Shown: one piece after another, positions 3,919-15,080 of the stretch | Numbering within the stretch: the stretch's first letter is position 1 | Layout: every line of letters begins with the position of its first letter | DNA from: Bacteroidota bacterium | GTDB taxonomy: Bacteria; Bacteroidota; Bacteroidia; Flavobacteriales; Flavobacteriaceae | Assembly (NCBI GenBank): GCA_039819225.1 | Contig: JBCBSN010000001.1 | Span: forward strand, 1,969-65,968 | Direction: 5' to 3' | DNA length: 64,000 nt | Notes under the pieces: model-generated | Seen by the model: the letters and a program-made list of their open reading frames with translations, nothing else | The model's database searches: none | What the model was told of the DNA's origin: nothing | Translations under genes and position numbers: made by a program

Positions 3919-4275
3919 TCATTGCCTATGGGAACTTGGCTTAAGGCAATGTTCTTTTAGGGTGGTGTCCATGTTTAGAAGAAAGAGTGTTCCATTGATT
4001 AGGTCTTCCATCAAAAAAAGGATATGTTCGTCTACTTTTAGGCAAATATCCATAAGCGGGTTGGAGCACCATATTTTGTTGCATTGGTTGCCCCCGCATT
4101 CGGCACAGGTGCAGGGTTCATGGGATTTTAGGACTACATCCTTTAGTGACTCCAGATCGGCCTTTGACATAAACAGGCCTACAGAATCAATGACCAATTG
4201 TAGTTCACATACCGGGTTGGGACTGTTGCGGAGCCTGTAGGTAGCTCCGTAATCTTTTTCATAAATCAGTTCCAT
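3919..4275 (-). CDS. Cys-rich hypothetical cytoplasmic protein (possible distant DUF6686-like paralog)
   Basis: 118 aa with 8 Cys including CTCAECGGNQCNKIWC; no signal peptide; ATG start. Confidence 0.7.
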   Translation of the reverse strand: MELIYEKDYGATYRLRNSPNPVCELQLVIDSVGLFMSKADLESLKDVVLKSHEPCTCAECGGNQCNKIWCSNPLMDICLKVDEHILFLMEDLINGTLFLLNMDTTLKEHCLKPSSHRQ

Positions 4276-4831: not shown

Positions 4832-6385
4832 TTATAGGCGCTCATACGTAAATTGCGGAAAGCCTCTTTCACCTTCGGAATTGGTAAAAGCGGTGAACAG
4901 TAGCTTGTAGTAGTTGCCATCCATGTCCTTCAAAACAAAGTATCTGTCATCCCTAACGGCGGCTACCCCGAATACACTTCGCCATCCACTGCCGATCACG
5001 GCCCTGTCGTTGTAAATAAAAGCGGATTCCTCCACATCGTCCCTGTTAAAATCGGTATAGCTTGGTACATCAAAGTTGGTGATATTGCCATCGCCATCCC
5101 TTTCATACGTGGTAACTTGGTACAATCCGGTACCACCTAAAGTGTTGTGAAGCACATAATCCGAAAAAGTCAATCCGGCTATAGTCGGGGGGCCTCCGAA
5201 ATTCCCAACACCGTAAAAGGAGAAGACCCCCGTAAAATTAAGGTCCCAGGAACCCTTTTCAGGTTCAACGTTTACACTTTGGCCTTCGGTTAAACTGAAA
5301 GCACTAAGATTAAAGCTGTCATTCTTTTCAATGGTGGCCTCGGAAAAGTTTTCGGTCTCGTTTAGGTCGGCATATTGAACGGTATAACTGTTTCCATCCG
5401 TAAGCACCCTAACTTTTAGGAAGCCCCGCTGATCACCGGTCGTGGAAATTGACCCAAGCTCAGCGGACTCAGTAGGGATTTCGTTCCCTAGGCTAACAAT
5501 ATACACGTTGTTTTGATCGGCGGTGGTAGAGACCGCTGCAAAAGCAGTGCCTTCCAACGTTCCCTCCCTGTTGTCCGTAAATACGAGATTTGTGGCTACG
5601 TTGCCGTACTGCGGATACGCTACGGGTAAACCTGCGACCAACTCACCAACGGTGGTAACAGTTACCGTTGCGGGTTGAAAAGCTTGATCAAAGGTGTTCA
5701 TTTTCAGGGCATTGGCAAGGTCGCTGTCTTCCGTGATGGAAAGTATATCCGTAATCCCCTCCAACTCCGCTGCAGCCACCAACAATGAGGGGTTTAAAAA
5801 TACCCTGTTTTCGGCCCCATTGTAAAAAGCGATTTCCCAGGTGTCTCTGCGAACCGCCGTTTGGGTGTTTGAGCTTAAATCTACATAGACTTGGTTAGGT
5901 TGATTGGAACCACCTTGTTCGGCATCAATGACACCACTAATTGCGGCAATGGGGGTAAAACTTACGGTAGACGACGAGGTAATACCATTGGACCAGTCGG
6001 TTTGATCATACCCGTTTAAGGCCAGCGAAACCGTTTTTGTGGTGCCTTCTATGGGGTCTTGCAATTTGGTAAAGGTAATGGTGGCACCAAGGTCGCCCAC
6101 CGCTACAGGTACGGCAATAGTGCCATTACCTCCCGTAGGAAGGGTAGAAAAGTCGGTGCCGTATTCTGCATTATTCCCGGTATATGCTACGGTTATGGTG
6201 CCGGACTCGGTGGCCGCCCTTGAGAAGGTCAAGCTAATTTCTTTATCGGTATCGGCCTCGGACAAACTTACGGTTTCACTACTGAACGATACGGTAAAAT
6301 CTATGAGATCTTCCCCATCATCATCGCCACAGGAAACCATGACGGAGAGAGACATAATCGCACTTAAAAAAAGGTACTTTTTCAT
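4832..6385 (-). CDS. hmuY: HmuY-family lipoprotein with N-terminal Ig/Calx-beta-like domain
   Basis: Lipobox VMVSC. HmuY-type motifs QVYVDLS..WEIAF, SWDLNF and YYKLLFTAF..GERGFPQFTYE. ATG at 6385 is preferred over TTG 6394. Confidence 0.8.
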   Translation of the reverse strand: MKKYLFLSAIMSLSVMVSCGDDDGEDLIDFTVSFSSETVSLSEADTDKEISLTFSRAATESGTITVAYTGNNAEYGTDFSTLPTGGNGTIAVPVAVGDLGATITFTKLQDPIEGTTKTVSLALNGYDQTDWSNGITSSSTVSFTPIAAISGVIDAEQGGSNQPNQVYVDLSSNTQTAVRRDTWEIAFYNGAENRVFLNPSLLVAAAELEGITDILSITEDSDLANALKMNTFDQAFQPATVTVTTVGELVAGLPVAYPQYGNVATNLVFTDNREGTLEGTAFAAVSTTADQNNVYIVSLGNEIPTESAELGSISTTGDQRGFLKVRVLTDGNSYTVQYADLNETENFSEATIEKNDSFNLSAFSLTEGQSVNVEPEKGSWDLNFTGVFSFYGVGNFGGPPTIAGLTFSDYVLHNTLGGTGLYQVTTYERDGDGNITNFDVPSYTDFNRDDVEESAFIYNDRAVIGSGWRSVFGVAAVRDDRYFVLKDMDGNYYKLLFTAFTNSEGERGFPQFTYERL

Positions 6386-6390
6386 AATGT

Positions 6391-8538
6391 TCAATTAAAA
6401 TTTAAGGTGTATAAGAGTTTTAGAAAATAGGATCTACCATTACCAAATAAACGGGCATCACCACCGGAGGCACCATGTGCACCTGCGGGGATGTCCGTTG
6501 CGTTTACGGTAACAATATCCAAGAGATTCCTGGCGCCCAGGGTAACATCAAAGTTTTTAAAGAAAGTTGTACGGATTGAGGCATCCAACCAAGTAAAGGC
6601 ATCTGTCTCGCCAATTTCGCGGCCATTGTTGCCCTCGAAAACATTGAGTGTCCTTCCCCTATGGTTCAACAAAGCGGACAGGGAGGTGTTTATTCTTGGA
6701 AAGCTATACAAAAGGGTAGACTGCAAATTGAAACTCCATAAATAACCGGAGTCGGCACCGTCTTCCAAGGCCGTATTGGTACTGATAAGGCTTGTGCCGA
6801 TGCCCGCCTGCCAATTATTGAAGTCAATTTTGTTGTTAAGGGTAAAGCCTAGTTTTTCTTCGAAATCAACGTTGTCAAAGGTGAACAGGATGCCATCGTC
6901 ATCTTCACTAACTATGCCCGTAATCTTGTTGTCTATATCGAAGTAGAACGAGCTCAAAGTTGATTTCAAGGGCCACTTGTCCCCAATCTTGAAGATATGG
7001 TCGTAGTTCAGAAAGATGGTTATTCCGTCTTCCGGTTGAAGGTTACGATTGCCCTTTACATTGTGATTGGCATCGACAAATTCTTGGAACAATTGGGAAA
7101 AATTTGGGGCTTTGAACGCAGAGGCCAGCGTAATTTTTAATTTGGAATCCTCCAAAAAATTATAAGTAGAAGAGAGTGACCAGAATAAGGCCTGTCCAAA
7201 CTGGGAATTGTTCACCGAACGAAGCCCTGGGAACAGGGACCATTGGTCGTTAAGGTTTAGATCGGCAGTGGCGAAGAAATCATAGTTTTCCAATGTTTCT
7301 TCCACGACATTGGTAGACTGGGCACCCGCCGCAATAGCATCAAATCCCTTTTGCCGGGTAAGCTCATACCCTAAAAGAAGGCCAAAAAACTCGGACTTGG
7401 GCATAATATTGGACACAAAGCCCCGGGAATACAAAATATCACTGGATTGGTCTATCCTGTCAATATTGAACGATTCGATGCCTTGTTGTAAAATGTTGTA
7501 GGTAAACGTTTGATAATTGCGTTCTTGGGTTTGGTAAGATAGCGATACGTTATACCGCGTTAATCCGCGTATGGGCCCCGAAATGTTAAAATTGTTCACC
7601 AATCGGTTAGTGTTGAACCTTGCGTCAGTCGCAGTAGGATTGGGCGTACCATCGGGATTGAGCCTACCATTTATGATACGATCATAGATGGTAAGTGTTT
7701 CATCAAAGTGTTGCAGTTTATAGAAAAGGCTGTGTTTTCCCATTTTGGCATGGACATTTCCAAAAAAGGTCAATTGTTCCTTGGGGTTCCATTCCGTGCC
7801 CCTTAAGGAATCGTTTATGACGATATTGTCTTGTAAATTGACATAATCCCGGCCCTGAAATTCATTATAAAAACCAGCGAAATCGTTTCTGGAAACACCG
7901 AGGGTATAGGATATGGCCGGACTTACTTGGTTGCTAACGTTAAAATTTTGGATATGCCTTCCCTGGTCGGAAAAAGAGAATTCACTGCCAACGGTCTCCT
8001 CTTGTAAAGCACTTTGTATCTTCCATTTGTAATCGCCCTCGATCCCCCTTTTTGTAATGATGTTGATCACCCCCGCCACTGCATTTTCACCATAAAGGAC
8101 TCCGGCCGCACCTTCTATGATCTCGATCCGCTCCGCATCCTCCAAGTTGATTTGCGTAATGTCAATATTATTGCCTATACCGTTATCACTGGCCACCGGA
8201 ATACCGTCGATCAGCACTTTAACATATTCCCCATCAAATCCGAACATACTTATGGTAGATCGTCCCGTTGCAGCGTCGGGCAGTATGGTAATGTTGAGGT
8301 TTTGGGTAAGTATATCCGCAAGGGTATTACCTGCCAATCGCTTAATTCCCTCCTGGTCGATCACATCTACATTGAACAGTTTTTTACTCAATGACATAAC
8401 CTGGCTTTCGCCTATAAGTATTACCTCCTGTAGTCTTTCCATAGGAATGGAATCATTTTCCATGGGAGTTTCCTGGCTAAGAATACTAGCCCCCAGAAAT
8501 CCGGTAAAAATGATGCCCAAAACCCTATTTAGATTCAT
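6391..8538 (-). CDS. TonB-dependent receptor, heme/iron type (HmuR-like)
   Basis: Plug motifs VLIDGIPV and ERIEIIEGAAGVLYGENAVAGVINIITK; C-terminal GRSYFLKLLYTLNFN; directly upstream of the HmuY-family gene. Confidence 0.9.
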   Translation of the reverse strand: MNLNRVLGIIFTGFLGASILSQETPMENDSIPMERLQEVILIGESQVMSLSKKLFNVDVIDQEGIKRLAGNTLADILTQNLNITILPDAATGRSTISMFGFDGEYVKVLIDGIPVASDNGIGNNIDITQINLEDAERIEIIEGAAGVLYGENAVAGVINIITKRGIEGDYKWKIQSALQEETVGSEFSFSDQGRHIQNFNVSNQVSPAISYTLGVSRNDFAGFYNEFQGRDYVNLQDNIVINDSLRGTEWNPKEQLTFFGNVHAKMGKHSLFYKLQHFDETLTIYDRIINGRLNPDGTPNPTATDARFNTNRLVNNFNISGPIRGLTRYNVSLSYQTQERNYQTFTYNILQQGIESFNIDRIDQSSDILYSRGFVSNIMPKSEFFGLLLGYELTRQKGFDAIAAGAQSTNVVEETLENYDFFATADLNLNDQWSLFPGLRSVNNSQFGQALFWSLSSTYNFLEDSKLKITLASAFKAPNFSQLFQEFVDANHNVKGNRNLQPEDGITIFLNYDHIFKIGDKWPLKSTLSSFYFDIDNKITGIVSEDDDGILFTFDNVDFEEKLGFTLNNKIDFNNWQAGIGTSLISTNTALEDGADSGYLWSFNLQSTLLYSFPRINTSLSALLNHRGRTLNVFEGNNGREIGETDAFTWLDASIRTTFFKNFDVTLGARNLLDIVTVNATDIPAGAHGASGGDARLFGNGRSYFLKLLYTLNFN

Positions 8539-8605
8539 TCTTTATAATTGTTCGGACAAATATATATTTTATTTTTAATGAATCTAAATAAAAATATTAT
8601 TTTTG
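8525..8605. promoter_or_regulatory. Divergent promoter region with two Fur-like palindromes (8525-8547, 8569-8591) and two -7 elements (8557-8564 minus, 8598-8605 plus)
   Basis: ctatttagattcattctttataa (18/22) and ttatttttaatgaatctaaataa (19/22) against TTATTTAGAATnATTCTAAATAA; TATATTTG and TATTTTTG match TAnnTTTG. Confidence 0.7.
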
Positions 8606-8639
8606 GCGAAACAATAGATATCAATTAAAACCCACGATT

Positions 8640-9563
8640 ATGAAAAATGTAATCCCTTTAGTACTCTTCTTCATATTTGCCTTTTCGGTCATGGCCCAGG
8701 AAGGTAAAAAGCAACAGGACATTGCTGCCATAAAGGCAATGTGCGGCTGTTACGAGGTAAAGTTCAAGTACACGGAAACCTTTGCCCCGGAAATCGATTA
8801 TGAAAAGCACCATGACTATACGGCCGCCGCTTTGGAATGGGCCCAACTTGTAGAGGACAAAAACAACAAACTGTCCATACAGCATATTCTGGTGGTCAAT
8901 GATACCATGGTGGTGAAGCATTGGCGACAGGATTGGGAATATGAGAATCAAAACGTTTTTCATTATGATAAGGACAATGCCTGGAACTTTAAAAAACTCC
9001 CGGCGCAAGACGTAAAGGGACAATGGACCCAAAAAGTTTTTCAGGTAGACGATAGCCCGCGCTATTCTGGATCGGCCACGTGGATACATGCAGATGGCAA
9101 GCATTATTGGGAGAATAGGACGAATGCTCCTTTGCCCAGGAGGGAGTACACCAAAAGAAAGGACTACAATGTTATGCTGCGCGGCAACCGCCAGGAAATC
9201 ACCGATTATGGTTGGGTGCACGAACAGGACAACGATAAGATACTTAGGCAAGATGGTGAAGAAGATGTTTTATTGGCCCAGGAAAAAGGCTATAACATCT
9301 ACACGAAGGTGGCCGACCAGAAATGTAAGCTAGCCCAGGATTGGTGGGTAGCCAATCATAAGTTCTGGGGCAAAGTCCGTGACTCTTGGAGCAAAGTCTA
9401 CAGCAGGGAAGGAAAACTTATGCTGAACAAAGTGGTTGATGGCCAACCTTTGTTCATGCATTTTTATCCGTTGGAAAAGGAAAAGGCCAAAACAAAGGAG
9501 ATTGCCCGGATTATTCAAAAATTTGTTGTAGACACACCGGAAAAGGATGCGCAGGGCAAGTAA
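8640..9563 (+). CDS. Secreted/periplasmic protein, DUF6607-like
   Basis: Signal peptide (AFSVMA-Q); DIAAIKAMCGCYEV, HWRQDWEYE and PLPRRE motifs that I recognise from a family of iron-locus proteins. Confidence 0.7.
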   Translation: MKNVIPLVLFFIFAFSVMAQEGKKQQDIAAIKAMCGCYEVKFKYTETFAPEIDYEKHHDYTAAALEWAQLVEDKNNKLSIQHILVVNDTMVVKHWRQDWEYENQNVFHYDKDNAWNFKKLPAQDVKGQWTQKVFQVDDSPRYSGSATWIHADGKHYWENRTNAPLPRREYTKRKDYNVMLRGNRQEITDYGWVHEQDNDKILRQDGEEDVLLAQEKGYNIYTKVADQKCKLAQDWWVANHKFWGKVRDSWSKVYSREGKLMLNKVVDGQPLFMHFYPLEKEKAKTKEIARIIQKFVVDTPEKDAQGK

Positions 9564-10077
9564 GTGTTTTTGTTCCGGGGTATTGTTTTTAACGACCTTT
9601 CATTTTTTGGGGGCACAGATTTCACCTAGGCTCCAAAAGAAGATAAATACCGCCATTACCACAACATACGGGGTGGCGGCCTTTGAGCTAAGGGAAGTGT
9701 CCACAGAGTTGGAAGAACTATCCTTGGACGGGGATTCCCTTTTTGAAATAGTACAGGATACCGAACAATTAGGATACCTATATCTAGGCGAGGCACCTAG
9801 TATGAAACAAGTTTTCGATTACATAGTCATGTTCGATCCCGATATAACGATTAAAAAATCCAAAGTATTGATTTACCGGGAAGATTACGGCCAACAGATC
9901 GGAAGCCAGCGATGGTTAAAGCAGTTTATTGGGCTTTCCGTTACGGATGTACCGATGTACTCGGAGAACATAGATGCCATAGCCGGAGCCACCATTTCCG
10001 CTAAAAACATGACGGATGCGGTGGGCAACGTTCTAAAAAAAATGGGTGTTTTAAAGGAAAAACAAGTACTGCCCTAG
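9547..10077 (+). CDS. FMN-binding domain protein (extracytoplasmic flavinylation target)
   Basis: Signal peptide; YREDYGQQIGSQRWLKQFIG and IDAIAGATIS resemble the FMN_bind [S/T]GA[S/T] motif; overlaps the upstream gene by 17 nt. Confidence 0.8.
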   Translation: MRRASKCFCSGVLFLTTFHFLGAQISPRLQKKINTAITTTYGVAAFELREVSTELEELSLDGDSLFEIVQDTEQLGYLYLGEAPSMKQVFDYIVMFDPDITIKKSKVLIYREDYGQQIGSQRWLKQFIGLSVTDVPMYSENIDAIAGATISAKNMTDAVGNVLKKMGVLKEKQVLP

Positions 10078-10235
10078 TGTAAAGAATGGTAATTTAATGA
10101 ACTAAAATTTTTGATGATATTTTTCTTTTTTTAAGGCGAGTTTTAAAGGCATAGCAGTAGCTACGGCGAAAAAATTCAACGTAAAAAAAAGGAAAATAGG
10201 CCGAAAATTAATTTGGGAAATTATCATTCTTTACA
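10078..10235. repeat. Inverted-repeat-bounded element with a Flavo-1-like structured core
   Basis: 18-bp IR tgtaaagaatggtaattt (10078-10095) / aaattatcattctttaca (10218-10235), 1 mismatch. The core aaggcgagttttaaaggcatagcagtagctacggcgaaaaaattcaacg folds as a long hairpin (about 10118-10198). The Flavo-1 identity is recalled, not searched. Confidence 0.55.
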
Positions 10236-10298
10236 ATAGGCCATATGAGCGATGCCCTTCCTGGTGCATACGCGGTAATTTTTAAACTTTTGAAGACC

Positions 10299-10335
10299 AG
10301 GATCTTTGCCCGGCCTGGCCGTCTGGGCAGATCCT
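10299..10335. repeat. REP-like GC-rich hairpin
   Basis: aggatct..tgcccgg..ctgggca..agatcct imperfect palindrome in intergenic DNA. Confidence 0.45.
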
Positions 10336-10373
10336 ATATCCAATTTTAGGACATGGGTGAAACCAGATAACAA

Positions 10374-10883
10374 ATGCAGCTATACCGTTCCATACAACAT
10401 TTTCCAAAGGAGATAAAGATTCTTATCGGTACTTTTTTGGTAGTGCTGAGCATAGGTTTCTTCTCGGCACTGCAGTTTGTATCCGTTACCACGGAAATGA
10501 CCTCTACGGGAATTCAGGAAAACTATTTGGGCAATGAAGAAGATGAGGAAGCTGAGGAAATGAAATTCAAGAAGGATGAAAAGCGGATGCTGAACATCCT
10601 CCATAGCCATTTAATGTCGCTGAGTCTCATTTTTTTTGTTTTGGCCCTGTTGGTCGCGACCACCCCTGTATCGGGCTTTTTGCGAAAACTTCTTTTGTTT
10701 GAACCCTTGCTTTCCGTACTCGTTACCTTCGGCGGAATATACCTTTTATGGAGCGGAGCGCTATGGATGAAATATGTAGTCCTGGTTTCCGGTATCTTAA
10801 TGACCTTTGCATTTATCCTTTCAGTTTTGGTTATTTTCTATTGGCTCTTTAAAAATGGAAGTACGGCCATAGAAAAAGATTAG
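10374..10883 (+). CDS. 4-TM membrane protein with an intramembrane HSH motif
   Basis: 169 aa, four hydrophobic helices, acidic loop NEEDEEAEE, LNILHSHLMS in TM2. Confidence 0.75.
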   Translation: MQLYRSIQHFPKEIKILIGTFLVVLSIGFFSALQFVSVTTEMTSTGIQENYLGNEEDEEAEEMKFKKDEKRMLNILHSHLMSLSLIFFVLALLVATTPVSGFLRKLLLFEPLLSVLVTFGGIYLLWSGALWMKYVVLVSGILMTFAFILSVLVIFYWLFKNGSTAIEKD

Positions 10884-10885
10884 CT

Positions 10886-10931
10886 TTATTTAGAACGAAT
10901 TAAAATAATTATCTAAATTTGTTCTAAATAA
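10886..10931 (+). promoter_or_regulatory. Two abutting Fur-like palindromes (10886-10908, 10909-10931) containing a -7 element TAAATTTG (10914-10921)
   Basis: ttatttagaacgaattaaaataa and ttatctaaatttgttctaaataa each match the 23-bp consensus at 18/22; 7 nt upstream of ATG 10939. Confidence 0.75.
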
Positions 10932-10938
10932 AAATAGG

Positions 10939-11292
10939 ATGTGTCCGAACATAAGATTGTTAAATGCTACGCCTAACGGAGCCATCTATTGGTTTAAGCA
11001 TAGCGATATGGCCCAGGTCATCTTTAAAAATCTTTGCTTCGATTTTTATCGCTTGGAGTACAATGCCTTTTTAAAGTACATATGCGGTTTGGACGCACTG
11101 CAGATTGAAAAGAAGAATAGGATGTCCCTGCACCACAAAAAGATTTCTATCCCCACGGGAAATGCGAATCTTACTTTGTTATTGGATAGGGAAGAGTTGA
11201 TGGAGTTTCAAAACTTGTTCAAAAAAAGGCCAAAGGACACCGTTCTGGAAAATCCCCTAGAAGAAATCGATTATCCCATGATTTTGAATTAG
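10939..11292 (+). CDS. Small cytoplasmic protein, DUF6686-like
   Basis: 117 aa; KKISIPT..NLTLLLD..EL and C-terminal IDYPMILN resemble a Flavobacteriaceae family found ahead of iron TBDRs (recalled). Confidence 0.65.
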   Translation: MCPNIRLLNATPNGAIYWFKHSDMAQVIFKNLCFDFYRLEYNAFLKYICGLDALQIEKKNRMSLHHKKISIPTGNANLTLLLDREELMEFQNLFKKRPKDTVLENPLEEIDYPMILN

Positions 11293-11343
11293 AGGAATCC
11301 CAAACGCTTACGGACCAATAGCCAACAACCGACCCGACCCCTA

Positions 11344-13734
11344 ATGAAATACGTTCCACTCTTTCTTGCTTTATGTCCCTTTCTTGTAGGGGCACAGTCC
11401 GGCTTCACGATTTCGGGTCTCATTACGGACGCGGACAACAATCCGCTGCCCTATGTAAATATCCGCTTGGACCGGAACAACAAATATGCTGTTTCCGATG
11501 AAAACGGGGTCTATGTCATCAAAAGGATACGGCGGGGAGAATACACCATAACCGTAAGTTCCCTTGGTTTTGTGACCCAGACCCGGAACATCTCTGTAAA
11601 TGGAAATGAAAAGCTCAATTTTTCTCTTAATGAGAATGTTGAGAATCTGGAGGATGTAACGGTTTATGGAAAAAATGAAGCTACCAAAATTAGTCAGAAG
11701 GCCATTACCATTAGTTCATTGGATGTACAACAAGTGGCCAGCCTATCCCTTGGGGCAGAAGAGGTGCTTAAAACGGCTACGGGAGTGGTGGTACGGCAAA
11801 GCGGAGGATTGGGCAGTGACCTGAACATTAACTTAAACGGTCTTTCCGGAAATGCTGTGCGGACGTATTACGATGGGATTCCGTTACAGGTCTATGGCAG
11901 TGGCATTCAGTTGAACAATATTCCCGTGGATGCCTTGGAACGTATAGACGCCTATAAGGGCGTTATGCCCGTAGATATTGGTACGGATGCTTTGGGGGGA
12001 GGCATTAACCTTGTTCCGGTAGAACAATACGGCGATGCACTTAGGGCGTCCTATTCGGTAGGTTCCTTTAATACACATCGTATTACGTTGAACGGCAATA
12101 GAAATTTCAACGACAAAACATCGTTGTCCGTCGTTTCTTTTTTTAACTATTCCGACAATGATTACGAGATGCGAAATATCCCCAACGTTGTGGAAAACAT
12201 TCAGGACGATGGTACAGTTTTGGGTGTTTCGGAGGAGATTATAGACGCCCGGCGTTTTCACAACCGTCACAGATCGGGCTTTGTTGAGGGCACGTTAACA
12301 TTGAAGGACAGGGCGTGGGCGGATAAGTTTAGCTTTTCCGCTTCGTATGCGAACCGATATGATCAGGCACAGCAGGGGCAGTTTATTATAAGCACGGCCA
12401 TAGGGGAGGCCGATCAGACCATAACGGGCTTTAACCAAAGGTTGGACTATCGAAAAAAGCTGTTCAACGACAAATTGAGTTTGCGCTATTTTGGTATTCT
12501 GTCCAATACCACTACAAAAACCAATGACAGTACAACGGCCATATACGATTGGAGGGGTAATAGATTGGTCACGGAAAACAGTTCGGGATCGGAGATCTTT
12601 GCGATTCCCACACTAAGGGAGGGACGAAACCTGGGAACGGCCCATCGTATTATCGCCAATCTAGGACTTGCCCAAAATCTAAATCTTAAGGTATCTAATT
12701 TTTACCGCTATTCCCGGGAAAAGGGAGAGGATCCCGTTGGTGTTCGGATAACCATAAACGGTGAGGCCATAGATCCCAATACCATACCTTCAAAATTGAC
12801 ACGGAACATCTTTGGTGTGCAATTGGAACAAAAATGGTTCAATGGAAAGTTGACCGCCCTGGCCTTTTATAAAAATTACCGCTACAATGCGGAATCCATT
12901 GATATTTTGAGTTCTTCGGCAACCCAATTGCCCGTGCGGGAGGTGAATGCCACTGAGGATGGTTATGGTGTTGCGTTAAAATATCAAGTGTTGGAGTCCC
13001 TTTTTGTGAGAGGAAGTTTTGAACGCGCCATACGCATTCCCACGGAAGGTGAAGTATTCGGGAATTTTGCGGCCATCCTGCCCAATTACGAGTTAAGACC
13101 GGAAAGTAGCAACAACGTCAATGCAGGCGTAACCTTTGACCAACGCTTGGGTAAAGAAGGATTTGTTACCATTTCGTTGGACGGCTTTATCCGGGACCAA
13201 GAAAACTTGATACGTTTGGAACCATTCGGTCCCGAAAACGCCATTTTCCGAAACCAGGCCAAGGTAGATGGTCAGGGGTTTGAGTTTTCCGCCAAGGTTA
13301 CCCCCGTGCGTAATGTAAACCTTTCTGCCAACCTAACCTATCAAAGCAATCAATTTGCGGAGAACAACAATGCCTCATCACAATCTATCATAGGCATTGA
13401 AATACCCAATATTCCCCAATTTTTCTACAATGTGGGGGGCAACTATAAAATAGAGAGGATTTTTCGTTCCCCCAATAGCCTTAGCCTATTTTACACCTAC
13501 TTTTTTCTGGACAGGTTCAGTATCAACTTGGTCTCGGATTTAGATACGGCCAACCCTGATTTTGTAATTCCGGAGCAGCATGTGCACAACACCGGGATTA
13601 CCTATGCTTTGGAAGAAACCGGATGGAGCTTTTCGTTGAATGTACAAAACATGTTCAATGCGGAACTGTTCGATAATTTTAGGATACCCAGGCCCGGGTT
13701 CAATTATGCTTTTAAAATCAATTATTCACTTTAA
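11344..13734 (+). CDS. TonB-dependent receptor with N-terminal carboxypeptidase-regulatory-like domain (siderophore/iron type)
   Basis: N-terminal ISGLITDADNNPLPYVNI; plug ERIDAYKGVMPVDIGTDALGGGINLV; C-terminal RPGFNYAFKINYSL. Confidence 0.9.
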   Translation: MKYVPLFLALCPFLVGAQSGFTISGLITDADNNPLPYVNIRLDRNNKYAVSDENGVYVIKRIRRGEYTITVSSLGFVTQTRNISVNGNEKLNFSLNENVENLEDVTVYGKNEATKISQKAITISSLDVQQVASLSLGAEEVLKTATGVVVRQSGGLGSDLNINLNGLSGNAVRTYYDGIPLQVYGSGIQLNNIPVDALERIDAYKGVMPVDIGTDALGGGINLVPVEQYGDALRASYSVGSFNTHRITLNGNRNFNDKTSLSVVSFFNYSDNDYEMRNIPNVVENIQDDGTVLGVSEEIIDARRFHNRHRSGFVEGTLTLKDRAWADKFSFSASYANRYDQAQQGQFIISTAIGEADQTITGFNQRLDYRKKLFNDKLSLRYFGILSNTTTKTNDSTTAIYDWRGNRLVTENSSGSEIFAIPTLREGRNLGTAHRIIANLGLAQNLNLKVSNFYRYSREKGEDPVGVRITINGEAIDPNTIPSKLTRNIFGVQLEQKWFNGKLTALAFYKNYRYNAESIDILSSSATQLPVREVNATEDGYGVALKYQVLESLFVRGSFERAIRIPTEGEVFGNFAAILPNYELRPESSNNVNAGVTFDQRLGKEGFVTISLDGFIRDQENLIRLEPFGPENAIFRNQAKVDGQGFEFSAKVTPVRNVNLSANLTYQSNQFAENNNASSQSIIGIEIPNIPQFFYNVGGNYKIERIFRSPNSLSLFYTYFFLDRFSINLVSDLDTANPDFVIPEQHVHNTGITYALEETGWSFSLNVQNMFNAELFDNFRIPRPGFNYAFKINYSL

Positions 13735-13739
13735 ATTTT

Positions 13740-15080
13740 ATGGAAATGAAAATTAATAATGTATTTGCATCACCATGGAAGTTAATGGCAATGGTGCTTT
13801 TTACCCTTTGCCTTGCTGCTTGTTCCAGTAGCGATGACACTCCCGATGACCCCACGGATGATATGGGTACCGAGGATCCTATGGATGACCCTGTGGACGA
13901 CCCCGTGGAGGCTCAAAACAAAAGCGAGGGCTTCGTGATAATTGGAACGACCAATAATAACGAATCCACTCTGGTAAAGTACGTGGAAGAGCTCCCTACA
14001 GGATCTATAGACCTTTCCGATGGCACTGATTTTCCGGCTTTTGGCCCCACCTCGATCCATGATCATGCCATGTTCCTGCCACGTCCGGATGGCTCCGCCG
14101 GTTTTTCCAAGTATGTGGTCAATGCCGATGGCGAACTGGAAGAAGAGGCCATATTGCCCACTATTAGTGCAGGTTCTTTCCGGATGGCCGTCCTGGATTC
14201 AGAAAGAGGAGTATTCCATGATCGGGCCACCCCCAATGCCATTTCCATTTTTGACCCTAGGACAATGGAGGTTATCGCCAACATAGACATGAGTAGTGCC
14301 CCGGTACCCGGTGATATAGACCAGCGTTACCAACGCTTTTTCTTTCGGGGGGATGATGTCTTTGCGCCAATTCGGGGCGAGGCCGGGGAATCGTTCACTT
14401 CCTTGATCGTACATCAGGCCAACGTATCCAGCGGAAGCTATGTAGGTTCTACCGAGCGCGTGGGAGACGGGGAAGGTGATCTTCTCTATCTTAATTCGGG
14501 AGGACCCTCCGCAGATGGGCAGGGCAACCTGTATATTTTTGACCAAGGTGTCTTTAGTGTTGGAACAACCGTGCTTCCCCGGATAAACAAAATACCGGCG
14601 GGAAGCGGCGAATTCGATTCCTCTTATGTATTTGAGCCAGGTCCTATCCTAAATCCCATGAATTTGGCCCATACTATCAGTGGTTTCGAAATAATAGAGA
14701 ATAACCAAGCTTTGGCCGTAATTAATGCGGATATTCCTCAGGCAGTGATTGATCTCATTACCGAAATAGGTGGGCTCCAAAATGCCTCTCCAGATCAGAT
14801 CCAACAACTATTGGGGCTTGTGTTTTCATCGCCCTCCGCGCGTTGGTGCATACTGGATATGGAGGCATTGACCGTAACCCCCATAGAGGGGATACCATCT
14901 GTAGGTGTTTTTAATGGTGGCAGTACCTTCAAATACAATGGCAATGTTTATATTCCTGTTAGTACACCAGATGAAAGCGCTTATTATGTATGGGATCCCA
15001 GTACCACGAGCGCTACAAAAGCTTTTGACTTCTTAGGGGCCGATATTGCGGGGGTCTTTAATCTGGCAAACAACCGCTAA
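13740..15080 (+). CDS. Surface lipoprotein partner of the TBDR (DUF4374-like beta-propeller)
   Basis: Lipobox CLAAC; Asp/Pro-rich linker (DDP repeats); beta-strand-rich body; 5 nt after the TBDR. Confidence 0.7.
   Translation: MEMKINNVFASPWKLMAMVLFTLCLAACSSSDDTPDDPTDDMGTEDPMDDPVDDPVEAQNKSEGFVIIGTTNNNESTLVKYVEELPTGSIDLSDGTDFPAFGPTSIHDHAMFLPRPDGSAGFSKYVVNADGELEEEAILPTISAGSFRMAVLDSERGVFHDRATPNAISIFDPRTMEVIANIDMSSAPVPGDIDQRYQRFFFRGDDVFAPIRGEAGESFTSLIVHQANVSSGSYVGSTERVGDGEGDLLYLNSGGPSADGQGNLYIFDQGVFSVGTTVLPRINKIPAGSGEFDSSYVFEPGPILNPMNLAHTISGFEIIENNQALAVINADIPQAVIDLITEIGGLQNASPDQIQQLLGLVFSSPSARWCILDMEALTVTPIEGIPSVGVFNGGSTFKYNGNVYIPVSTPDESAYYVWDPSTTSATKAFDFLGADIAGVFNLANNR

What the first reader, a model, noticed from the sequence alone, without database searches (positions are those of the whole stretch)
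8640..10883. Candidate extracytoplasmic flavin-based iron-reduction module: DUF6607-like + FMN-binding protein + 4-TM HSH protein
Seen: three co-oriented genes diverging from the heme TBDR and sharing its Fur-like boxes. The middle protein has a signal peptide and DAIAGATIS (Ala instead of S/T at the first motif position). The last has four TMs with a His-Ser-His in TM2 and an acidic external loop. The first has a CGC motif right after the signal peptide. Established: ApbE attaches FMN to the final Thr of [S/T]GA[S/T] motifs, and such proteins receive electrons from membrane partners, often for iron assimilation. No apbE lies in this window. Inference: the HSH protein is a heme-b- or quinone-linked donor, the FMN protein a carrier and the DUF6607-like protein an acceptor or metal-handling partner.
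Basis: partly seen in the sequence, partly recalled or inferred. Interest (0 to 1): 0.65.

Follow-up and report, generated by a model that had tools for sequence, protein, structure and literature searches.

The report
Haem-binding protein plus flavin reductase pair
A known type of haem-capturing protein (RhuH) is joined here to an undescribed, iron-regulated pair of a flavin-carrying periplasmic protein and a small membrane protein, which elsewhere in the phylum sits beside a porin, the flavin-attaching enzyme ApbE and the ferrous-iron transporter FeoAB, so it is probably a new kind of periplasmic iron or haem reductase.

Summary
In detail: there are three co-oriented genes, divergent from a haem TonB receptor, behind a Fur-type box.

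- **Gene 1 (DUF6607)** is no longer unknown. It is a close homologue of RhuH, the Riemerella anatipestifer haemophore (PDB 8xjc, 48% identity, TM-score 0.82/0.90). The haem ligand and all five propionate contacts are conserved.
- **Genes 2 and 3** are an FMN_bind protein and a four-helix membrane protein with an invariant HxH (PF27139). They form an obligate pair: both occur in exactly the same 103 of 251 Flavobacteriaceae genera and are almost always adjacent.
- **The usual partner of the pair is a porin, not RhuH.** A Porin_O_P-like gene precedes it in 20/20 and 22/30 sampled loci. ApbE often follows it. In distant families feoAB lies just upstream. In all 20 family loci checked, two Fur boxes precede the porin gene.
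- **This window is a derived variant.** All RhuH-adjacent FMN proteins form one paralogue clade (support 100/99), and this genome has no porin homologue.

The most likely function is a flavin-based periplasmic reductase serving haem or iron uptake. Neither a cofactor in the membrane protein nor electron transfer to RhuH has been shown.

I rate this a new variant of a known kind, interest about 0.6.

The parts
4832..6394 (-). HmuY-family gene, in the position of rhuA, second gene of the divergent haem-receptor operon
   Evidence: Pfam HmuY E=7e-19. A homologue is present upstream in 13 of 18 RhuH-FMN loci that have enough flank.
6391..8538 (-). TonB-dependent receptor, in the position of rhuR (haem receptor), divergent from gene 1
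   Evidence: Pfam Plug plus TonB_dep_Rec_b-barrel. A homologous divergent receptor lies within 600 bp upstream of RhuH in 16 of 18 RhuH-FMN loci. R. anatipestifer has the same layout (PMC11967795).
8571..8591 (.). Fur-type box in the 101-bp bidirectional promoter (8539-8639)
   Evidence: TCTAAATAA at 8583-8591. The 19-mer 8571-8589 matches the R. anatipestifer Fur box ATTTAGAATTATCCTAAAT at 14/19 positions by my own hand count, with one perfect half-site (box sequence from PMC10986502).
8640..9563 (+). RhuH-type haem-binding protein (DUF6607), with a Sec signal peptide
   Evidence: Pfam PF20311 E=2.8e-109. phmmer against 8xjc E=1.4e-87. Foldseek E=2.4e-32, TM 0.82/0.90. H94, R141, Y142, R168, R181 and Q196 correspond to RhuH H96, R143, Y144, R170, R183 and Q198.
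9547..10077 (+). Periplasmic FMN_bind protein of the RhuH-linked paralogue clade. Predicted flavinylation site Thr149 (codon 9991-9993), motif DAIAGATIS at 9973-9999.
   Evidence: Pfam FMN_bind 30.7 bits. GATIS is invariant in orthologues. The clade of 24 RhuH-adjacent proteins has 100/99 support.
10078..10373 (.). Non-coding spacer. Its first ~160 nt form a long imperfect hairpin.
   Evidence: RNA fold -88.2 kcal/mol, z=-5.25. Unique in the genome. No real Rfam match. Not alignable with the gaps of L009, L010 and L012, of which L010's was read and encodes a small Cys-rich ORF.
10374..10883 (+). Four-helix inner-membrane protein of family PF27139 (Aq_1264_TM), with invariant H77 and H79 (codons 10602-10610)
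   Evidence: Precomputed Pfam label. H77 and H79 are the only invariant residues in 66 diverse homologues. G53, G28 and E110 are conserved in 88-97%. AF2 pLDDT 94.8. No PDB fold or sequence match.
10884..10938 (.). Two further Fur-type boxes that mark the start of the next operon (DUF6686, TonB receptor, DUF4374)
   Evidence: TCTAAATAA at 10886 (minus strand) and 10923 (plus strand).

Best explanation
The three genes are a Fur-box-controlled operon attached to a rhuR-rhuA-type haem-uptake locus.

Gene 1 is a RhuH-family haem-binding protein. Haem iron is held by His94 and the propionates by R141, Y142, R168, R181 and Q196.

Genes 2 and 3 are an obligate pair. One is an exported FMN_bind protein, expected to carry FMN bound covalently to Thr149 by one of the genome's two ApbE enzymes. 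The other is a four-helix inner-membrane protein whose only invariant residues are an HxH at the periplasmic end of helix 2.

Across Bacteroidota this pair normally follows a Porin_O_P-like outer-membrane gene. It is often followed by apbE and sometimes preceded by feoAB, under the same Fur boxes. That makes it a periplasmic reductive iron-uptake module.

In this window the porin is absent. The FMN protein belongs to a paralogue clade found only next to RhuH.

Most likely mechanism (inferred, not shown): the membrane protein feeds electrons, or anchors the electron entry point, to the covalently bound FMN. The FMN then reduces ferric haem held by RhuH in the periplasm, or iron derived from it. 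This would ease haem hand-over or iron release, with Fe(II) then taken up by FeoAB.
For: - RhuH identity: and PMC11967795.
- Pair co-occurrence: the 4TM protein is in 103/251 genera and the FMN orthologue in exactly the same 103. They lie adjacent on the same strand in nearly all.
- Porin context: porin-FMN-4TM in 20/20 family loci and 22/30 phylum loci. The porin matches Pfam Porin_O_P.
- ApbE directly after the 4TM gene in 7/30 loci and in 5 of 10 distant loci (cluster c6). This supports flavinylation.
- feoB lies upstream of the porin in 7 of 10 distant loci, and ferritin lies downstream in 5 of 20 family loci. This supports an iron role.
- Two boxes matching the R. anatipestifer Fur box precede the porin gene in all 20 family loci. 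The same core occurs 4 times in this island and nowhere else in the 64 kb.
- All 24 RhuH-adjacent FMN proteins form one clade (100/99) nested within the porin-type proteins.
- Every genome with the RhuH-linked paralogue also has the 4TM gene: 15 of 15, against a background of 41%.
- Eight genomes keep both paralogues, one beside RhuH and one beside the 4TM gene. This points to a separate job for the RhuH-linked copy.
- This genome has no porin homologue.
- RhuH has only a Sec signal peptide, with no type IX sorting domain and no lipobox. It would therefore pass through, or stay in, the periplasm. The published protein was found in outer-membrane vesicles.
Against: - No cofactor is demonstrated or predicted for the membrane protein. 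Two His residues on one helix, two residues apart, cannot by themselves give a transmembrane electron path.
- RhuH and the pair are statistically independent at the genome level (31 genomes with both, 33 expected). Fifty of 81 RhuH-bearing genera have no pair at all, including by inference R. anatipestifer, where the neighbouring gene B739_1414 is not in that study's table of iron-limitation-upregulated genes. RhuH therefore works without the pair.
- The published role of RhuH is extracellular, as a haemophore.
- The motif has Ala where S/T is usual.
- A 296-nt gap with a strong hairpin separates genes 2 and 3 here, so co-transcription is unproven.
- There are no expression data.
Confidence: 0.5

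Rival explanations
1. The FMN protein and the 4TM protein are a general periplasmic ferric reductase. They share an operon and a Fur box with rhuH only for co-regulation. No electrons pass to RhuH-bound haem. The substrate is ferric iron or ferric chelates, as in the porin-type operons.
For: - The canonical context is a porin, feoAB and ferritin, not haem genes.
- RhuH and the pair are independent at the genome level.
- RhuH functions alone in R. anatipestifer (PMC11967795).
Against: - The RhuH-adjacent FMN proteins are a distinct, long-lived paralogue clade (100/99). In all sampled loci it lies directly after rhuH.
- Eight genomes keep this copy in addition to the porin-type copy. Co-regulation alone does not explain that.
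Confidence: 0.22
2. The 4TM HxH protein is not an electron donor. It is a small oligomeric Fe(II) or other metal permease, or a metal-receiving site. The FMN protein reduces Fe(III) next to it, and the electrons come from a donor encoded elsewhere.
For: - Conserved polar residues line the whole membrane span. H77 and H79 lie at the periplasmic mouth next to an acidic loop. S139, T118 and S114 lie mid-membrane. E110-P111 lie near the cytoplasmic side, and positions 110, 114 and 118 fall on one helix face.
- There is no set of His, Cys or Met residues suitable for haem or Fe-S.
- There is a precedent: FMN_bind genes occur in P19/FTR1 iron-transporter clusters that lack a membrane donor (PMC8238504).
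- In one genome the 4TM gene follows a PepSY_TM gene instead of an FMN gene.
Against: - feoAB lies directly upstream in distant families, so an Fe(II) importer is already provided there.
- The model has no fold match to any transporter.
- It would leave the FMN protein with no electron source in a very widely conserved operon.
Confidence: 0.18
3. The gene-2 protein is not flavinylated because of the Ala at the first motif position. The pair would then have a non-redox role, such as a scaffold or chaperone for RhuH export.
For: - The canonical motif is [S/T]GA[S/T], and here the first position is Ala.
- The Pfam score is modest at 30.7 bits.
Against: - The acceptor Thr and the GATIS core are invariant.
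- Ala, Ser, Thr and Val interchange among close orthologues.
- ApbE is encoded inside many orthologous operons.
- The genome has two ApbE genes, at least one with a signal peptide.
Confidence: 0.05

Closest known systems
RhuH haemophore of Riemerella anatipestifer (PDB 8xjc; Wang et al., Adv Sci 2025, PMC11967795)
   Same: - 48% identity and the same fold (TM 0.82/0.90).
- The His ligand and all five propionate-binding residues are conserved.
- Sec signal peptide only.
- The gene diverges from a TonB haem receptor plus an HmuY-like gene across a short promoter with a Fur box.
   Different: - Here rhuH is followed by an FMN_bind gene and a 4TM gene, which the RhuH paper does not mention.
- In R. 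anatipestifer the neighbouring gene B739_1414 is not in the published table of iron-limitation-upregulated genes.
- This protein has CGC where R. anatipestifer has AGC. CGC is the family norm.
ApbE-flavinylated FMN_bind electron carriers (NqrC, RnfG, PplA) and the flavinylation-associated iron-assimilation clusters of Meheust et al. 2021 (PMC8238504)
   Same: - An extracytosolic FMN_bind domain with the GAT acceptor motif.
- ApbE is encoded in orthologous operons.
- The link to iron transport genes and Fur matches the logic of the PepSY-like, MsrQ-like and P19/FTR1 clusters.
   Different: - The membrane partner belongs to none of the five described classes (NapH-like, MsrQ-like, PepSY-like, DsbD, NQR/RNF-like). 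It has no match in the local Pfam copy and no fold match in the PDB.
- The association with a porin and with FeoAB is not described in that paper.
EetA/EetB-PplA-FmnB extracellular electron transfer of Listeria (recalled from my own knowledge, not tested here)
   Same: Small membrane proteins with no recognised cofactor are thought to pass electrons from the quinone pool to an ApbE-flavinylated FMN_bind protein that reduces ferric iron.
   Different: That system is Gram-positive. No sequence relation was detected. There the FMN protein is a lipoprotein with two FMN_bind domains.
PepSY_TM ferric reductases (FoxB, VciB)
   Same: They are inner-membrane, iron-regulated and perform periplasmic iron reduction. 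A PepSY_TM gene lies in the same island (1324-2988). In one genome a PepSY_TM gene precedes the 4TM gene.
   Different: There is no homology. PepSY_TM proteins are larger and carry haem on several His residues.

Membership tests
RhuH / DUF6607 (PF20311) | Profile match above the curated cut-off | tested here: met
   365 bits against a cut-off of 27.
RhuH / DUF6607 (PF20311) | Same fold as the solved structure 8xjc | tested here: met
   AF2 model pLDDT 86.5. Foldseek E=2.4e-32, TM 0.82/0.90, rmsd 2.4.
RhuH / DUF6607 (PF20311) | Haem-iron ligand His96 and propionate contacts R143, Y144, R170, R183 and Q198 | tested here: met
   All six align to identical residues: H94, R141, Y142, R168, R181 and Q196. 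All six are invariant in 42 homologues.
RhuH / DUF6607 (PF20311) | High-affinity haem binding and haem extraction from haemoglobin | not testable with these tools
   Needs purified protein.
ApbE-flavinylated FMN_bind proteins | FMN_bind domain above the Pfam cut-off | tested here: met
   30.7 bits against a cut-off of 22. There are weak RnfG matches in NCBIfam, below their cut-offs.
ApbE-flavinylated FMN_bind proteins | [S/T]GA[S/T] motif with the acceptor Ser or Thr | tested here: inconclusive
   The acceptor Thr149 and the GATIS core are present and invariant. The first position is Ala here. Across 59 orthologues it is S/T in 52, Ala in 6 and Val in 1.
ApbE-flavinylated FMN_bind proteins | Extracytosolic location and an ApbE available | tested here: met
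   There is an N-terminal hydrophobic leader. The genome has two ApbE genes, one of them with a signal peptide. ApbE lies inside orthologous operons.
ApbE-flavinylated FMN_bind proteins | Covalently bound FMN | not testable with these tools
   Needs co-expression and in-gel fluorescence.
PF27139 Aq_1264_TM | Profile match | tested here: met
   The precomputed label sits on the window's own protein and on all 120 listed homologues. The model is absent from the local Pfam copy, so I could not rescore it.
Di-haem membrane cytochromes b (MsrQ-like, cytochrome b561, PepSY_TM) | Four conserved His on two or more helices, or a profile match | tested here: not met
   Only H77 and H79 are invariant, both on helix 2. 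There is no Pfam or NCBIfam match and no PDB fold match.
The five flavinylation-associated membrane classes of Meheust 2021 (NapH-like, MsrQ-like, PepSY-like, DsbD, NQR/RNF-like) | Membrane partner matches PF12801, PF01794, PF03929/PF16357, PF02683 or PF03116 | tested here: not met
   The Pfam scan of gene 3 returns nothing at E<=0.01. The class definitions come from PMC8238504.

The most novel reading that the evidence does not exclude
The FMN_bind protein and the HxH 4TM protein would be a sixth, undescribed class of flavinylation-linked membrane redox module. It would be widespread in Bacteroidota as a Fur-regulated porin, flavoreductase, ApbE and FeoAB pathway for reductive iron uptake.

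In the lineage of this window, a dedicated paralogue would have been recruited to reduce haem held by RhuH. That would mean the published 'haemophore' also works inside the periplasm as a redox partner. Reduction could drive haem release, or even iron removal or haem breakdown. This genome has no canonical haem oxygenase.
Probability: 0.3. Interest if true: 0.78.

Novelty: new variant of a known kind. Interest (0 to 1): 0.6.

Why it matters
**A possible new membrane partner class.** Flavinylated periplasmic electron carriers are a recognised but poorly charted way for bacteria to reduce iron outside the cytoplasm. The membrane partner here fits none of the described classes and has no structural relative. 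Yet it is present in about 40% of Flavobacteriaceae genera and in many other Bacteroidota families, always with the FMN protein. Where I checked the promoters, in 20 Flavobacteriaceae loci and in this window, it is under Fur-type boxes.

**A possible route to Fe(II).** If confirmed, it would show how abundant marine and host-associated Bacteroidota turn ferric iron into the Fe(II) that FeoB imports.

**A new question about RhuH.** The RhuH-linked variant asks whether haem held at 10^-11 M affinity needs reduction to be released or used. It also makes it testable whether RhuH acts in the periplasm as well as outside the cell.

Tried and rejected
- **Literature.** Searches for DUF6607, aq_1264, and the combinations FMN-binding + Flavobacteri + iron-limited + porin and FMN-binding + FeoB + ApbE found no paper.
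- **PDB sequence search.** Profiles of the FMN protein and of the 4TM protein found nothing.
- **PDB fold search.** The confident 4TM model gave only chance-level hits, best E=1.2.
- **CGC motif of gene 1.** I tested it as a marker of the FMN link. It is family-wide (73 of 75 readable sequences) and unrelated to FMN adjacency, so I dropped it.
- **The 296-nt gap.** It is unique in the genome. Rfam gives only a spurious miRNA hit far below its threshold. It is not homologous to the gaps of three relatives. I read one of these, L010 (Flagellimonas sp. 389), and it encodes a small Cys-rich ORF.
- **Distant 4TM homologues.** Looking up contigs for two of them gave only fragments under 1 kb. I replaced this with genome searches.
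- **His-plus-Met haem ligation (H77 with M143).** Rejected. M143 is only 71% conserved, and by my reading of the model's helix positions it lies much deeper in the membrane.
- **A failed script.** One tree script was lost to a machine error. I repeated it with FastTree.
Full report
**Observation**

The window comes from a Flavobacteriaceae genome; its closest named relatives are Ulvibacterium. Three co-oriented ORFs lie at 8640-9563, 9547-10077 and 10374-10883.

- Gene 1 matches Pfam DUF6607 at E=2.8e-109.
- Gene 2 matches FMN_bind at 30.7 bits, above the cut-off of 22.
- Gene 3 has no match in the local Pfam or NCBIfam copies. It carries the precomputed label PF27139 'Aq_1264_TM'.

These are DAIAGATIS in gene 2, H77-S-H79 plus an acidic loop in gene 3, and C35-G-C37 in gene 1.

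The genes diverge from a TonB-dependent receptor (6391-8538) and an HmuY-like gene (4832-6394) across 101 bp. A 296-nt gap separates genes 2 and 3. Its first 160 nt fold into a long hairpin (z=-5.25). The gap sequence is unique in the genome.

**Gene 1 is a RhuH-type haemophore**

An AlphaFold2 model (pLDDT 86.5) matches PDB 8xjc, 'a novel haemophore of Riemerella anatipestifer'. Foldseek gives E=2.4e-32 and TM 0.82/0.90. By sequence the match is E=1.4e-87 at 48% identity.

The paper behind that structure is PMC11967795. It shows several things about RhuH:

- It binds haem with Kd 3.4e-11 M through His96, with R143, Y144, R170, R183 and Q198 on the propionates.
- It has only a Sec signal peptide.
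- It is found in outer-membrane vesicles.
- It is transcribed divergently from rhuR-rhuA from a 122-bp promoter with a Fur box.

All six residues align to identical residues here (H94, R141, Y142, R168, R181, Q196). All six are invariant in 42 homologues. The layout of receptor, HmuY-like gene and Fur box is the same. So this part of the finding is already known biology. The paper says nothing about FMN or membrane genes next to rhuH. In R. anatipestifer the neighbouring gene B739_1414 is not in the published table of iron-limitation-upregulated genes.

**Genes 2 and 3 are an obligate pair**

I searched 251 Flavobacteriaceae genomes, one per genus.

- The 4TM profile hits 103 genomes.
- The FMN-protein profile at E<=1e-25 hits exactly the same 103.
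- In almost all of them the two genes are adjacent on one strand, a few bases apart.
- RhuH is present in 81 genomes.
- Thirty-one genomes have both RhuH and the pair, against 33 expected by chance.

So RhuH and the pair are not associated at the genome level. Of 80 RhuH loci fetched from named genomes, 12 carry all three genes, 11 carry RhuH plus the FMN gene, and 57 carry RhuH alone.

**The normal context of the pair**

In 20 of 20 family loci where no rhuH gene is adjacent, the order is porin-like gene, FMN gene, 4TM gene. The porin-like gene is about 390 aa and matches Pfam Porin_O_P. Ferritin follows in 5 of these loci.

Across the phylum the same order holds in 22 of 30 loci. A Tat-signal ApbE directly follows the 4TM gene in 7 of them.

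Ten loci with more divergent 4TM homologues (E about 1e-20), from other families of the phylum, were also read.

- Seven have feoB upstream of porin, FMN gene and 4TM gene.
- ApbE follows the 4TM gene in five of them.
- An Fe-S assembly gene often comes next.
- One of them also has a TonB receptor plus HmuY.

Upstream of the porin gene, all 20 family loci carry two copies of a box of the form TTATTTAAAATTAATCTAAATAA. The boxes flank the -33 and -7 promoter elements. The box matches the R. anatipestifer Fur box reported in the literature, ATTTAGAATTATCCTAAAT (PMC10986502). The window has the same core four times, only in the promoters of this iron island.

Together these points support flavinylation of the FMN protein and a role in iron-regulated reductive iron uptake. 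The eLife survey of flavinylation clusters (PMC8238504) describes five membrane partner classes and links to VIT1 and to P19/FTR1. It mentions neither a porin nor this membrane family, and Feo appears only in its reference list.

**This window is a derived variant**

A maximum-likelihood tree of 60 FMN proteins puts all 24 RhuH-adjacent copies in a single clade (100/99). That clade is nested inside the porin-type proteins of Flavobacteriaceae. This implies one duplication.

- Eight genomes keep both paralogues, one beside rhuH and one beside the 4TM gene.
- Five genomes, including this one, have only the RhuH-linked copy, with the 4TM gene directly after it.
- In one more genome the RhuH-linked copy is the only FMN gene found, and the 4TM gene lies elsewhere behind a PepSY_TM gene.
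- No genome has the RhuH-linked paralogue without a 4TM gene (15 of 15, against a background of 41%).
- This genome has no porin homologue.
- In a RhuH tree, the FMN-linked RhuH proteins fall mostly in one clade: 23 of its 30 members are FMN-linked, and the label needs four changes on the tree.

This pattern argues that the paralogue still needs the 4TM protein and has acquired a function specific to RhuH.

**The flavinylation motif**

In 59 orthologues the GAT core is invariant. The position three residues before the Thr is S or T in 52, Ala in 6 and Val in 1, and it varies among close relatives. The genome has two ApbE genes. One follows the NQR operon on C45. The other, on C112, has a signal peptide and sits next to thioredoxin-like and Rieske-like genes. 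An RNF operon lies on C2.

**The membrane protein**

The family is small, with 195 clusters at 50% identity.

- Among 66 diverse members, only H77 and H79 are invariant.
- G53, G28, E110, P111, F87, F119, S139 and T118 are conserved in more than 80%.
- The model is confident (pLDDT 94.8) but has no structural relative in the PDB.
- The positive-inside rule places the HxH at the periplasmic end of helix 2, next to the acidic loop.
- E110, S114 and T118 line one face of helix 3 across the bilayer.

This excludes a classical four-His di-haem cytochrome b. Two readings remain open:

- an electron-input subunit, with haem at a dimer interface or with quinol handed directly to the flavin;
- a metal-binding or permease role.

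The feoAB linkage makes a second Fe(II) importer less necessary. I therefore favour the donor role, but only weakly.

**Mechanism and confidence**

*Shown by sequence or comparative data*
- RhuH identity.
- The obligate FMN-4TM pair.
- The Fur-type boxes.
- The ApbE, porin and feoAB neighbourhoods.
- The single origin of the RhuH-linked paralogue.

*Inferred*
- Covalent FMN on Thr149.
- Electron flow from membrane to FMN to ferric haem on RhuH, or to ferric iron.
- Periplasmic action of RhuH.

The genome also has feoAB (C168) and a CobN/HmuS-like gene (C209), and it has no canonical haem oxygenase. I put 0.5 on the combined best explanation. The main rivals are co-regulation without electron transfer to RhuH (0.22) and a permease role for the 4TM protein (0.18).

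**Earlier notes of this scan**

An unchecked note on another genome (e1-5256476) describes the same operon of porin, FMN protein and HxH protein, with paired palindromes. I had already found this independently, so it agrees but adds no independent evidence. Notes on this genome about the palindrome regulon and the paralogous small Cys-rich proteins agree. The note that no hmuS-type gene lies in the window also holds, and adds that a CobN/HmuS-like gene lies elsewhere in the genome.

**Verdict**

- The DUF6607 gene is a known haemophore family.
- The FMN-4TM module appears undescribed. It is a new variant of the known kind 'flavinylated extracytosolic electron transfer for iron assimilation'.
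- This window shows a rare RhuH-linked form of that module.

Noticed in passing
window 10078-10238: A roughly 160-nt imperfect palindrome lies in the gap between the FMN gene and the 4TM gene. As RNA it folds at -88 kcal/mol over the whole 296-nt gap, z=-5.25. It is unique in the genome and has no Rfam family. In Mesonia and Robiginitalea the two genes abut, so it looks like an insertion.
   Followed up: partly
window 3919-4275 (minus strand); L010 7478-7822: The 118-aa Cys-rich protein of the island is homologous (E=6e-10) to a 114-aa ORF that sits between the RhuH-linked FMN gene and the 4TM gene in Flagellimonas sp. 389. It may also be distantly related to the DUF6686 gene at 10939-11292: the L010 ORF matches that gene only weakly (E=0.002). 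Small cytoplasmic proteins of this kind travel with these iron operons.
   Followed up: partly
L140 (G226:C4:241000-255000): In one genome, whose contig length equals that of Euzebyella marina CY01, the 4TM gene sits at its usual place between the HMGL-like gene and IMP dehydrogenase. There it follows a PepSY_TM gene and small ORFs instead of the porin and FMN genes. The only FMN gene found in that genome lies beside rhuH at another locus.
   Followed up: partly
L135-L139: In one family of the phylum (f21), a PCuAC-like copper-chaperone domain protein follows the 4TM gene. The upstream barrel gene has diverged beyond Porin_O_P recognition.
   Followed up: no
L146-L154: In distant Bacteroidota families feoA-feoB lies directly upstream of porin, FMN gene, 4TM gene and ApbE. 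An FeS_assembly_P gene lies downstream.
   Followed up: partly
genome contig C112:746-2641: A second ApbE with a signal peptide lies in an apparent operon with a thioredoxin-like protein (CTPC motif) and a small Rieske-like lipoprotein. This may be another flavinylation-linked periplasmic redox system.
   Followed up: no
window 10884-15080: The next operon holds DUF6686, a myxochelin-receptor-like TonB receptor and a DUF4374 lipoprotein. From my own knowledge this resembles the Bacteroides XusAB pair. It starts with two inverted Fur-type boxes at 10886 and 10923. A PepSY_TM gene (1324-2988) with DUF3325-like small membrane genes lies at the other end of the island.
   Followed up: partly
genome contigs C209 and C168: A 1323-aa CobN/HmuS-like gene and feoAB lie outside the window. 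No Pfam Heme_oxygenase match exists in the genome.
   Followed up: partly
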